Shown: positions 12,001 through 15,000 of the stretch, piece by piece
Numbering within the stretch: position 1 is the stretch's first letter
Layout: each line of letters begins with the position of its first letter
Source: a virus
Taxonomy: Duplodnaviria > Heunggongvirae > Uroviricota > Caudoviricetes
Direction: 5' to 3' (one strand)
IMG/VR virus record: IMGVR_UViG_2563366804_000001
Location: 1-27,871 of that record
DNA length: 27,871 nucleotides
Program-made: the position numbers

Positions 12001-15000
12001 GTACGGCACTGGCTAAATCCCTTGAGCATGATGCTGAATACACGACGCGAAAAGGTCTGCTGATATACAAAATCTGGAATGAGAATTTAACTCGCGACCC
12101 TGATTTGGTGATGTTGCGTTCCGGTGAATTTTCTAAATTACCAGTGCGGGTTTCATTTTGTCCGTTCTGTGGTGAAAGTCTGAAAACGTGGGAGAACAGA
12201 AATGAATGAAATTAGAGAAATACCAGTAGTACGTGATGAATATGGCTGCTGGACGCATCCTGAATATGAAAAATTCTGTGATGGTAGAGAACTTATTTCA
12301 ACGGAAGAGTTTAACGCCTGGATGGAGGAAAATAATCTTCAATACGTCCTCTGCTTCAGAGATGAAGGATGTGCTGACCTTGATGCGTGTGATGCTGATA
12401 TTTCTGCATGGGAACCGGAACGACCAGAGGGCAATGGATGGTTTATTGGTTCAATACATGACACCGAAGATGGCCCGGTTTGTGTATGGCTGAGAAATAA
12501 GGCCGAAGCATAAAGGCTATAAACCGACTAACAACTAAATACTGAAGATTTAAATCAGAAACGATTTTTATTAAATCCTTAACCGGAGGGATTCTGCACC
12601 CTCAGAACATCAGGAGGCCGTCTGAAAGGGCGGAACAGCTAATGCTTACGTTGAAACATTTTATCGACATACCAACATGGTTAGCCGTCATTGCTTTTGT
12701 TAAAATACACATCCACTTTTCTGTGCAATGTTTAACCACTGGTCATATCAAATGGCATTCATGCGAACCATGATATAGAATCATGGCTTGAGAGAGTCGA
12801 TGAAAGCGCAACTATGGTATGAGAGACATTGATGTAAGAAAGGCTGTGCATGCCAAGATTCTGAGAGATCATCATAAAGATCCTGACACCCTAATCATTG
12901 ATGAGTTTACGATGAATCTAGGGGCTAGCAGAGCTGATATAGCAGTGATCAATGGGCTTATACATGGTTATGAGTTGAAGAGCAAGAGTGATAACTTGCT
13001 CAGATTACCAGCGCAGGTGCAACATTACTCATCAGTGATGGATAAAGTAACGTTGGTTGTCTCTGATTGCCATCTTTATGATGCTTTAAGCATAGTTCCA
13101 TCATGGTGGGGGATAAAGCAAGTTACGCAAGGTGCACGGCAAGGTATCCATTTAAAAACAATTCGAACTAGCAAGTTGAATCCACAAGTGGACAAACTTT
13201 CCTTAACAATGCTTCTTTGGAAAGATGAATTGCTTTCCCTATTAAGTGATGTAGGGGAGCTACAGAATTTGAAAAATAAACCTAAACGCGTCTTATGGTC
13301 AAAACTCGCCAATAGTATGGATGTTGGCGAGCTTCGTGAAGCTGTTCGAGTTAAACTTAAAGCCCGTAAAGAGTGGCGAGTTGCTCAATAACCTTAGTTA
13401 TGTGATGGTTTTGCCCAATCCTACGCCATACCTCTGGGCTACCAAATTTATAGTTACCAGAGGGATTGGCTTTGTAGGCTTGATACTCGTTTGCATAATA
13501 TTCTATGTCTCTATCTCCCGCACAGAATGTAGGCCCTGAATATTCTCGATGAGCAAGAATATCCTCACTATGTTTACCATATTGTTCATAACCAAAGCGA
13601 TTAGCTACTCTTCCTCGAAATACCCAAAAGTCATTATCTCCAGAGTATCTGACGCTGGCAGATACGCTAGGGAATCGCGTCGAAAGCCTATTAAAGTCGG
13701 GGTGCTGTACTCCATAATCACTATAAATCACATTTCTGGCAAGTTCTTTTCTATTCATTAAACTCTGCCATAAAATCCACTCGATTCGAGGTTGAGAATA
13801 TAGACCAACAGAAATATCACTGAGATCTGTAGGAAATGAACCCCCAGAAAGAATCACTTTTCTGTATTCATTGAGGTGCGCCAGATTGTTTATCAATCCC
13901 ATTGCCAAAGTATATAGTTCGCCGGAATTAAGTTTATCCTCGGTTAACTCATCTCTTAAGTCAATAATTATATCAATATTTGATAAAGGAATTCCCAGAT
14001 GATTAATGTAATGCGTTATTAATTGTGGGTTAACCAGATCTAACGTGGTTAATCTCAAGCATATTTCATTCTGCATTAATTCATCAATCGCTCTTTTATA
14101 GTTAGATGGGCGAGTTGGTGAACTGACAGGAATAACTCTTATCCCCATATCTCTAACTTGATTAACCGCATTTATTATAGGGTAATGATCTTCAGGAGAA
14201 ATAAAATGCTCTTCAATTAATAATCCATCAATATAAACACCTTGCATATCTGAGCAAGATTTTGAGACTTTCTTTCCGAACTCTATAAGAGTCTCGTTAT
14301 AACTCTTTAAGGCAATACCTGAATCAGGGTCAATTGGCACTGGTTCAATTTCGAGTAATGGCAAAATTTTTGATTTCTTTTCAATGGATAGCTGCGATAA
14401 AGCTGATAACTCAGAACGTTTCGCTTTCAGAATAGGAATATATGAAATTGTCATGTTAATACCTTATACAGAATCAATTAACAATTAATGGTTCTTCGGA
14501 CATTGAAATTTATATCGCAAAAATTGGCAAACTCTCCTCGACTACTCACTTGTGGGTATCCTGGCGTAAAAGGAATGACTTGGCAATACCCGGTGTGATC
14601 ATAAGTCATTGAAAATGATCATTTTTATCAGTCTTTCTTCCATGATGAATGCTAATGCCATTTGATTTGTTGAGGTGAAAACTGTTAAAAATCAAAACGA
14701 TGTAATTGAAATGAACGTTCGGTAGCATTCACGCTTTAAATGTTTCTTTTGTGCTGATTGGATGAATTTTGGTCACTTATGATGAGAGATGTTGCAGGAA
14801 AAGAAGTTGGCATTGATCTATTGGATAGTTAGAATTGCTGCGGGTGCTTGAGGCTATCTGCCTCAGGCATGAACACCAAAAGGCAGATAGAGAAAAGCCC
14901 CAGTTAACATTACGCGTCCTGCAAGACGCTTAACATTAATCTGAGGCCATATCTATGCGACACATAGAGATTAGCCTCTTACGGACCGAAAGGTCAAGGA

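What the first reader, a model, noticed from the sequence alone, without database searches (positions are those of the whole stretch)
12819..14454. Convergent AT-rich gene pair (PD-(D/E)xK-like nuclease plus 365-aa uncharacterized protein): candidate undescribed defense or abortive-infection module
Two genes with visibly lower GC than the flanking prophage genes sit between the nin-like genes and the hok/Q region, a position where lambdoid phages commonly carry accessory cargo. The 190-aa protein shows a PD-(D/E)xK-type catalytic layout (D40 in RADIAV, E52-x-K54 in HGYELKS). The 365-aa partner starts MTISYIPILKAKRSELSALSQL, which reminds me of the Beta/sce7725 family that pairs with sce7726-type PD-(D/E)xK proteins; this is from memory and unverified. 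The convergent orientation with overlapping 3' ends is unusual and hints at antisense coupling. It is the only stretch in the window I cannot fit into the standard lambdoid gene repertoire.
Basis: partly seen in the sequence, partly recalled or inferred. Interest (0 to 1): 0.8.

Follow-up and report, generated by a model that had tools for sequence, protein, structure and literature searches.

The report
Interlocked nuclease and Beta-protein prophage pair
A Rac-type E. coli prophage carries, on its own, the two-gene core (a P4 cII-like nuclease and a P4 "Beta"-like TIM-barrel protein) found in two tested anti-phage systems, and the two genes share their last few dozen bases on opposite strands in bacteria from many phyla.

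Summary
Window 12819-13391 (+) encodes a 190-aa protein and 13357-14454 (-) a 365-aa protein. They converge, overlap by 35 nt and are AT-rich.

- The 190-aa protein is an sce7726 / Phage_P4_cII family member. It has a confident PD-(D/E)xK fold, and D40, E52 and K54 are invariant.
- The 365-aa protein is a full-length Pfam Beta_protein, a divergent TIM barrel. It is not an sce7725 member.

The pair is not unknown. PGAP already names both genes. Homologues occur in P4 gop-beta-cII and PD-lambda-2, both experimentally validated defence systems. The window lacks gop and the HigB-like and Xre-peptidase genes, so this is a stand-alone core that no held paper or PADLOC v2 model describes as a system.

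The most unusual result is that the convergent 3' overlap is a family hallmark. It occurs in 75 of 77 genomic and 76 of 79 viral loci, always in the same reading-frame phase. The conserved C-termini of both proteins are dual-coded and synonymous change is suppressed there.

The most likely function is prophage-borne abortive-infection or exclusion defence, with the nuclease as effector and Beta as fast-evolving sensor or antidote. This is inferred, not shown.

The parts
12634..14829 (.). Extent of the AT-rich cargo island that holds the pair plus its own non-coding flanks.
   Evidence: Homology to other lambdoid phages stops at about 12633 on the left and resumes at about 14830 on the right, in the sok/hok region. 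Phage vB_EcoS-640R1 has other small genes between the same flanks. The GC profile supports this. Rfam sok begins at 14842.
12752..12781 (+). Candidate sigma-70 promoter for the nuclease gene (ATGGCA-18-TAGAAT). This is weak evidence only.
   Evidence: It is a consensus scan hit 38 nt upstream of the ATG. The total number of hits is not above shuffles. The region is not conserved between genera.
12819..13391 (+). Gene for a 190-aa sce7726 / Phage_P4_cII-family PD-(D/E)xK nuclease-fold protein, with a C-terminal helical domain.
13357..13391 (.). Dual-coding 3' overlap. It encodes nuclease residues 180-190 (including K181, R183, W186) on the + strand and Beta residues 355-365 (including L359, L362) on the - strand.
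   Evidence: Searches show the overlap. Searches show the conserved overlap and phase. One search shows the HMM-aligned C-termini overlap in 71 of 79 loci in a constant register. One search shows third-position identity of 0.72-0.755 here, against 0.39-0.41 elsewhere.
13357..14454 (-). Gene for a 365-aa Beta-family protein, a divergent TIM barrel related to P4 beta and PD-lambda-2C.
14455..14829 (-). AT-rich non-coding leader and promoter region of the Beta gene. An SD-like AAGG lies 9 nt before the ATG. The promoter was not identified.
   Evidence: Sequence. There are no ORFs of 60 aa or more and no conserved small ORF or conserved DNA across genera. The promoter scan gave no hit on the - strand here.

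Best explanation
The locus is a stand-alone 'Beta/cII' module. This is the two-gene core that also occurs in the P4 satellite system gop-beta-cII and, in many genomes, at the end of PD-lambda-2-type operons. Here it is carried as horizontally acquired cargo in a Rac-type prophage. Most likely it is a prophage-encoded anti-phage module of the abortive-infection or superinfection-exclusion type.

Proposed division of labour (inferred):
- The strongly conserved PD-(D/E)xK protein (sce7726/cII-like) is the DNA-cutting effector or toxin.
- The much faster-evolving TIM-barrel Beta protein is its partner. It would hold the nuclease in check and respond to a phage cue, as P4 beta neutralises Gop and PD-lambda-2C is needed for defence.

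The two genes are transcribed towards each other and share their last 35 nt. This locks them together genetically. It probably also couples their expression through convergent transcription or antisense RNA.

Shown here: the family membership, the folds, conserved catalytic-type residues, the conserved pairing, the conserved dual-coding overlap, purifying selection on both genes, and the cargo status.

Inferred: the defence function of the two-gene form, which protein is effector and which is sensor, and any antisense regulation.
For: Family and fold.

Validated relatives:
- P4 gop-beta-cII protects against lambda and P1, and Gop is toxic without beta (PMC9122126).
- The P4 system is triggered to kill by phage orf184.

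Same architecture elsewhere:
- P4 beta and cII are convergent.
- Gordonia phage Powerball gp32/gp33 form the same overlapping pair.
- 77 of 80 genomic loci and 79 of 80 viral loci carry the pair.
- 19 of 25 Beta-anchored plasmid hits have an overlapping sce7726 gene.
- PD-lambda-2 A/B-type genes sit upstream of Beta with sce7726 converging.

The stand-alone form is real and maintained:
- The window has no gop, A or B.
- 34 of 77 loci are stand-alone, including all the closest relatives.
- Both genes show codon-position conservation in the order position 2 > position 1 >> position 3.
- 93 complete E. coli genomes carry the pair.
- A second E. coli variant sits at a different prophage cargo site.

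Toxin/antitoxin-like asymmetry: the nuclease is 40-57% identical across phyla, whereas Beta is 21-30%. The two genes co-evolve, with mirror-tree r = 0.81 and 0 of 999 permutations reaching that value.

Overlap constraint.
Against: - No experiment exists on the two-gene form.
- In the known systems the demonstrated toxins are Gop and PD-lambda-2B, not the cII-like protein.
- The tested PD-lambda-2 clone extended only 396 bp past gene C. An intact convergent nuclease gene was therefore probably not needed there, if ECOR42 has one at all, which I could not verify.
- Beta occurs with an Xre-peptidase but without sce7726 in R. phaseoli.
- sce7726 occurs alone next to RusA in phage Mx4 and alone in L013. 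Neither protein is therefore strictly dependent on the other.
- Beta's conserved Asp, Glu and His residues at strand ends look like an enzyme active site rather than a passive binder.
- No promoter or terminator signal rose above background.
- P4 works with a 27-nt gap and a terminator in place of an overlap.
- The 80 genomic loci were the best 80 of 448 hits, so more distant branches are undersampled.
Confidence: 0.45

Rival explanations
1. The roles are reversed. Beta is the enzymatic effector, for example a metal-dependent phosphodiesterase or nucleic-acid enzyme built on a TIM barrel. The cII-like protein is an accessory, regulatory or DNA-processing partner. The module is still a defence or conflict module.
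For: - Beta is the common denominator of all contexts: gop+Beta+cII, A+B+Beta+cII, B+Beta and Beta+cII.
- PD-lambda-2C is required for defence, and the tested clone probably lacked an intact nuclease gene.
- Invariant D76, D165, D246, H351 and E15 lie at barrel strand ends, or in the C-terminal helix for H351.
- TIM-barrel DNA enzymes (UVDE, DpdA, TGT) are among the structural hits.
Against: - P4 beta behaves as an antidote, not a toxin.
- Beta evolves much faster than the nuclease, which is the usual pattern for a sensor or antitoxin rather than an effector.
- The nuclease keeps a fully invariant catalytic triad.
Confidence: 0.2
2. The pair is a pure addiction (toxin-antitoxin) cassette. It stabilises itself and the prophage and has no anti-phage role.
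For: The genes are interlocked and inseparable. The pair lies next to another addiction-type locus, hokD/sok. It is present on plasmids and prophages. It shows toxin/antitoxin-like conservation asymmetry.
Against: Both characterised relatives give phage resistance. One is triggered by a phage protein. The pair occupies variable prophage cargo sites that are typical of defence genes.
Confidence: 0.12
3. The pair is a restriction-modification-like system. Beta modifies DNA (a TGT/DpdA-like barrel) and the PD-(D/E)xK protein cuts unmodified DNA.
Confidence: 0.08
4. The pair serves the phage itself, for example in DNA repair or recombination, or in counter-defence during lytic growth. It does not act against other phages.
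For: The closest solved structure is the MmcB-like/DUF1052 protein SPO1766, and one homologue is named 'DNA repair protein MmcB-like'. A solitary sce7726 sits next to RusA among the early genes of phage Mx4. In the window the pair lies between the replication genes and the nin/Q-side genes.
Against: The pair also lies between the lysis and terminase genes in other prophages, on plasmids, and in chromosomal contexts with HigB/Xre-peptidase genes. Only 93 of 3,629 E. coli genomes that share the flanks carry it. It is therefore accessory rather than core.
Confidence: 0.08

Closest known systems
Phage/satellite P4 gop-beta-cII anti-phage system (Ghisotti 1990; Rousset 2022, PMC9122126)
   Same: It has homologous cII (sce7726 family; 28% identity, PADLOC 'cll' 2.4e-28) and homologous beta (Pfam Beta_protein; 23% identity). 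Beta and cII are convergent. It is carried by a mobile element at a cargo hotspot.
   Different: The window has no gop. P4 cII is 264 aa, against 190 aa here. In P4 the two genes do not overlap; a 27-nt gap holds a terminator. The window's Beta matches the P4-specific 'beta' model only at its N-terminus (18.7 bits).
PD-lambda-2 (Vassallo 2022, PMC9519451)
   Same: The window's Beta matches the PD-Lambda-2_C models over its full length (1.7e-41). In many genomes PD-lambda-2-type A-B-C operons end with the same convergent, overlapping sce7726 gene.
   Different: The window lacks the HigB-like A and the Xre-HTH/M78-peptidase B. The published system is defined as three genes without the nuclease. 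The tested clone had only 396 bp beyond gene C.
sce7725/sce7726 gene pair (NCBIfam NF033831/NF033832)
   Same: The 190-aa protein is a clear sce7726 member (191 bits). Its partner shares the N-terminal motif of sce7725 (residues 5-39).
   Different: The 365-aa partner fails the sce7725 model (12.3 bits against a cutoff of 60). It belongs to the broader Beta_protein family instead. No held paper describes a function for either family.
MmcB-like / DUF1052 PD-(D/E)xK proteins (PDB 3dnx, SPO1766), and the nuclease domains of Can2, NucS and type II restriction enzymes
   Different: Sequence identity is 20% or less, and no sequence-level match to any solved structure was found. The window protein has an extra C-terminal four-helix domain and an obligate convergent Beta partner.

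Membership tests
sce7726 family (NCBIfam NF033832) / Pfam PF26915 Phage_P4_cII | Full-length HMM match above the curated cutoff | tested here: met
   191.1 bits against a cutoff of 70, covering residues 1-184 of 190. The 99%-identical P0001 and all listed homologues carry a precomputed PF26915 hit, which is named Phage_P4_cII.
PD-(D/E)xK nuclease superfamily | Restriction-endonuclease-like alpha-beta-beta-beta-alpha-beta core fold | tested here: met
PD-(D/E)xK nuclease superfamily | Conserved catalytic D ... (D/E)-x-K on strands 2 and 3 | tested here: met
   D40 (strand 37-44) and E52-x-K54 (strand 48-54) are invariant in 49 homologues.
PD-(D/E)xK nuclease superfamily | Metal-dependent nuclease activity | not testable with these tools
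   This needs biochemistry.
Pfam Beta_protein (PF14350) | Full-length HMM match above the gathering score | tested here: met
   178.6 bits against a cutoff of 27, covering residues 5-356 on profile positions 1-341 of 342.
sce7725 family (NCBIfam NF033831) | HMM match above the curated cutoff | tested here: not met
   12.3 bits against a cutoff of 60, over the N-terminal 35 residues only.
P4 gop-beta-cII defence system | Presence of a gop toxin gene upstream of beta | tested here: not met
   tblastn of P4 Gop against the whole window gives a best E of 1.3. There is no ORF of 60 aa or more upstream of Beta.
P4 gop-beta-cII defence system | cII homologue convergent to a beta homologue | tested here: met
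   PADLOC 'cll' 2.4e-28. BLASTP to P4 cII 2e-17 and to P4 beta 8e-09. The convergent layout is also seen in P4.
P4 gop-beta-cII defence system | Protection against phages (lambda, P1), and cell death on trigger | not testable with these tools
   Shown for P4 only.
PD-lambda-2 defence system | HigB-like component A and Xre-HTH/M78-peptidase component B | tested here: not met
   There is no match in the window, with all E above 1.
PD-lambda-2 defence system | Component C (Beta family) | tested here: met
   PDLC03983 1.7e-41 and PDLC03984 5.3e-38, both full length.
TIM-barrel fold (Beta protein) | (beta/alpha)8 barrel | tested here: met
Toxin-antitoxin module | One product toxic and neutralised by the other | not testable with these tools
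   There is only indirect support: conservation asymmetry and co-evolution, and the behaviour of P4 beta.

The most novel reading that the evidence does not exclude
Beta/cII may be an autonomous, widespread two-gene anti-phage system. The sce7726 family has at least 5,400 clusters at 50% identity and occurs from Actinobacteria phages to CPR bacteria. Gop-beta-cII and PD-lambda-2 would then be elaborations of it, and PD-lambda-2 would have an overlooked fourth gene. The ancient, phase-locked dual-coding 3' overlap would be a functional device, such as a convergent-transcription or antisense switch that sets the nuclease-to-Beta ratio, rather than a frozen accident. Beta would be a new kind of TIM-barrel phage sensor or enzyme.
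Probability: 0.3. Interest if true: 0.72.

Novelty: new variant of a known kind. Interest (0 to 1): 0.55.

Why it matters
If the two-gene form defends on its own, three things follow.
- It would unify two separately named E. coli defence systems (Gop-beta-cII and PD-lambda-2) around one conserved core.
- It would suggest that PD-lambda-2 has an unrecognised nuclease partner in many genomes.
- It would add a module that is missed by the rules that require gop or the A/B genes. At the single-gene level, PADLOC v2 only hits 'cll' and 'PD-Lambda-2_C'.

The convergent, dual-coding overlap is also a rare case of a long tail-to-tail gene overlap kept over deep evolutionary time. It is held in one phase from actinophages to Proteobacteria, Firmicutes and CPR. 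It gives a clean, testable model for whether convergent transcription regulates a toxin-like pair. Neither family has known biochemistry, so the catalytic residues listed here are direct targets for mutagenesis.

Tried and rejected
- Profile searches of the PDB with both alignments found no solved relative.
- The afdb50 fold library was unavailable. Foldseek against the PDB gave only generic barrels.
- I tried to locate the ECOR42 PD-lambda-2 locus, to see whether an sce7726 gene converges on gene C. The homologue search with a PD-lambda-2B-like protein returned more than 4,500 hits, with no E. coli entry among the 120 listed. The plasmid tblastn gave no enterobacterial locus. This remains unresolved.
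- Ghisotti 1990 (PMC249035) is not held. From memory of its abstract, mutating the cII terminator gives a temperature-sensitive phenotype through reduced beta expression. This is unverified and is not used as evidence.
- Literature searches for sce7725, sce7726, PF14350 and PF26915 found only incidental mentions in genome annotations.
- The promoter and terminator scan was not above shuffled background.
- A search for a hidden conserved small ORF or conserved non-coding element next to the pair was negative.
- Rfam found only sok, which belongs to hokD.
- I rejected the idea that the overlap is a chance ORF run-on. The HMM-aligned C-termini themselves overlap in a constant register. The phase (overlap = 2 mod 3) is not the codon-aligned antisense frame (overlap = 0 mod 3) that tolerates long antisense ORFs most easily.
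- I rejected the idea that the locus is a decayed remnant of a three-gene system. All the closest relatives are stand-alone, and both genes show purifying selection.
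Full report
**1. Observation**

The two ORFs are exactly as described: 12819-13391 on the + strand (190 aa) and 13357-14454 on the - strand (365 aa). They converge and share 35 nt. GC is 0.34-0.41 across the region, against about 0.51 in the flanking genes.

The window is 100% identical to a Rac-type prophage of E. 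coli O27:H7 B4103-1. Its gene order runs ttcA, intR, xisR, ralR, recET, kilR..., replication genes, DUF1627, DUF977, two small genes, the pair, hokD, DUF1367, DUF1364, DUF1133, tRNAs, and lysis and tail genes. Other lambdoid phages share the left flank up to about 12633 and the right flank from about 14830. Rfam places sok at 14842-15013. Phage vB_EcoS-640R1 has unrelated small genes between the same flanks.

The pair therefore sits on a cargo island of about 2.2 kb at a variable site. Of the 5,426 complete E. coli genomes, 3,629 match some part of the 2.4-kb query, but only 93 carry at least 80% of it.

**2. Identity of the proteins**

*The 190-aa protein.*
- It is a full-length sce7726-family member (NCBIfam 191 bits, cutoff 70). 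It matches the PADLOC model 'cll', which is P4 cII (2.4e-28), and phrog_984.
- It is 28% identical to P4 cII, which RefSeq itself labels as sce7726 family.
- Homologues carry Pfam PF26915, named Phage_P4_cII.
- In 49 diverse homologues, E29, R38, D40, H49, E52 and K54 are among the invariant residues.
- The AlphaFold model is confident (pLDDT 94.9). D40 lies on the second strand and E52-x-K54 on the third.
- A C-terminal four-helix domain follows the nuclease core.

*The 365-aa protein.*
- It is a full-length Pfam Beta_protein (178.6 bits).
- It matches PD-Lambda-2_C models over its full length (1.7e-41). It matches the P4-specific 'beta' model only at its N-terminus.
- It fails the sce7725 model.
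- Across very divergent members the invariant residues are Y5, P7, L9, E15, P32, P109, V110, D165, D246, G338 and H351. D76, R223 and Y270 are nearly invariant.
- Most of these lie at or just after predicted barrel strands. That pattern is usual for a catalytic or ligand site, which is an inference here.

*Solved structures.* Neither family has a solved structure detectable by sequence.

**3. What is already known**

- P4 carries gop, beta and cII. Gop is toxic without beta, and the three genes protect against lambda and P1 (PMC9122126).
- A phage accessory gene, orf184, triggers cell death by this system.
- PD-lambda-2 has a HigB-like A, an Xre-HTH/peptidase B that is toxic alone and rescued by A, and a C 'related to a P4 phage antitoxin'. 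C is needed for defence against lambda-vir (PMC9519451).
- PGAP already annotates the window's genes as 'sce7726 family protein' and 'beta family protein'. The annotators of phage Rac-SA53 wrote 'CII phage-like protein' and 'beta'.
- No held paper discusses the biochemistry of either family, or the two-gene form as a system.

**4. The window's version is a stand-alone core**

- No gop, PD-lambda-2A or PD-lambda-2B homologue exists anywhere in the window.
- No ORF of 60 aa or more lies upstream of either gene within the island.
- Among 77 genomic loci with both genes, 34 are stand-alone, including all the closest relatives (Enterobacterales, Aeromonas, Vibrionaceae). Twenty have a PD-lambda-2B-like gene of about 400 aa directly upstream of Beta, often preceded by a HigB-like gene. 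Twenty-three have some other ORF there.
- A second E. coli variant (54% and about 28% identical) is again stand-alone, but sits between the lysis cassette and terminase Nu1 of another prophage.
- Between genera, only the two coding sequences are conserved. The flanking DNA is not, and there is no hidden small ORF.
- Beta can also occur with an Xre-peptidase and without sce7726. sce7726 can occur alone, next to RusA in phage Mx4 and in L013.

**5. The overlap is a family hallmark**

- Of the 80 best genomic loci, spanning Proteobacteria, Myxococcota, Acidobacteriota, Firmicutes, Chloroflexota, Cyanobacteria relatives and CPR, 77 have Beta immediately downstream and convergent.
- Of these 77, 75 overlap by 11-167 nt (median 53). 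All 75 overlaps equal 2 mod 3.
- In IMG/VR, 79 of 80 loci have Beta, 78 are convergent, and 76 overlap in the same phase.
- An actinobacteriophage (Gordonia phage Powerball) has the same arrangement.
- The HMM-aligned, homologous C-termini of the two proteins fall on the same nucleotides in 71 of 79 loci, in a constant register.
- In the window, nuclease residues 180-190 (K181, R183, W186) and Beta residues 355-365 (L359, L362) are encoded on opposite strands of the same 35 nt.
- Among nine close relatives, third-codon-position identity is 0.39-0.41 outside the overlap and 0.72-0.755 inside it. Both frames are therefore under selection there.
- The phase is not the codon-aligned antisense frame.
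- The constant phase is what common descent predicts. Stop-codon shifts change the overlap length only in steps of three. The overlap has nonetheless almost never been resolved, even though its length has changed many times.
- P4 is an exception, with a 27-nt gap and a terminator. The overlap is therefore not indispensable.
- Caveat: the loci are the best-scoring subset of 448 hits.

**6. Mechanism (inference)**

The nuclease is much more conserved than Beta. For example, it is 54-57% identical where Beta is 27-29%, and 40% where Beta is 25%. The two proteins co-evolve (r = 0.81, with 0 of 999 permutations reaching that value).

This asymmetry is what one expects of a conserved toxin or effector paired with a rapidly adapting antidote or sensor. 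P4 beta is an antidote, and PD-lambda-2C is needed for defence but not for neutralisation. Taken together, the most economical model is as follows. Beta restrains the PD-(D/E)xK nuclease and responds to a phage cue. The released nuclease then cuts DNA and aborts infection. Convergent, overlapping transcription links the two genes physically and probably balances their expression. I put this model at about 0.45 overall, and at about 0.65 for 'a conflict or defence module of some kind'.

The main rival (0.2) reverses the roles. Beta is the common denominator of all contexts and has an enzyme-like conserved site. The tested PD-lambda-2 clone also carried only 396 bp beyond gene C, so an intact nuclease gene was probably not required there.

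Lesser rivals:
- a pure addiction cassette;
- an R-M-like pair, with Beta as a DNA-modifying barrel (TGT and DpdA are among the hits);
- a phage-beneficial repair or recombination function, given the MmcB-like fold and the Mx4 context.

**7. Verdict**

The 'undescribed' label is too strong, because the genes are named and their relatives sit in two validated systems. However, the stand-alone two-gene architecture has not been tested or named in anything I could search. I also did not find described in the papers I could search either its role as the shared core of Gop-beta-cII and PD-lambda-2-type operons or its phase-locked dual-coding overlap.

I rate it a new variant of a known kind, with interest 0.55. 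The family is sizeable, with 5,424 clusters at 50% identity for the nuclease profile.

Noticed in passing
L022 6001-9122, L042 5986-8868, L044 5890-9171, L090 821-4124 (related loci): PD-lambda-2-type operons (HigB-like A, Xre-HTH/M78-peptidase B, Beta C) end with a convergent, overlapping sce7726 gene. This gene is not part of the published three-gene definition. The tested ECOR42 clone extended only 396 bp beyond gene C, so any such gene would have been truncated.
   Followed up: partly
L085 3134-4763 (also L086, L087): A second E. coli type of the pair (nuclease 206 aa, 54% identical; Beta 355 aa; 59-nt overlap) sits stand-alone between the lysis cassette and terminase Nu1 of a different lambdoid prophage. 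This is another cargo site.
   Followed up: partly
window 14842-15166: A hokD/sok type I toxin-antitoxin locus lies immediately to the right of the island. Rfam sok scores 108 bits at 14842-15013, and the hok ORF is at 15011-15166.
   Followed up: yes
window about 12654-12661; L171 664-1429: In phage Rac-SA53, an IS1 is inserted at AAACATTT, 166 nt upstream of the nuclease start and inside the island's left non-coding arm. Its effect on expression is unknown.
   Followed up: partly
window 13383-13391: The window's nuclease ORF is 190 aa with a 35-nt overlap. Most identical-core E. coli and IMG/VR copies are 192 aa with a 41-nt overlap. This is a stop-codon polymorphism inside the dual-coding segment.
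   Followed up: no
window 17416-17569: Prophage-borne tRNA-Thr (TGT) and tRNA-Gly (TCC) genes lie downstream of the Q-like region.
   Followed up: no
L004 3992-5211 (Myxococcus phage Mx4); L013: A solitary sce7726 homologue without Beta lies in an early-gene operon directly upstream of a RusA resolvase in Mx4. L013 (Xenorhabdus koppenhoeferi) also has no Beta remnant.
   Followed up: partly
L045 8181-12494: A 1,437-aa ORF lies 2 nt upstream of Beta on the same strand in a Bryobacteraceae MAG. This is a different, unidentified upstream partner.
   Followed up: no
window 11955-12513: The low-GC stretch starts before the island. It covers two small + strand genes of unknown function (84 and 103 aa; GC 0.41-0.46). 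Part of this region (from 12505) is shared with other lambdoid phages.
   Followed up: no
CP061267.1 36334-37428 (E. coli plasmid record, H77): The same pair, with Beta 99.5% identical, is annotated on a 171-kb E. coli plasmid record from sheep. This is possibly a phage-plasmid or a prophage-bearing replicon.
   Followed up: no
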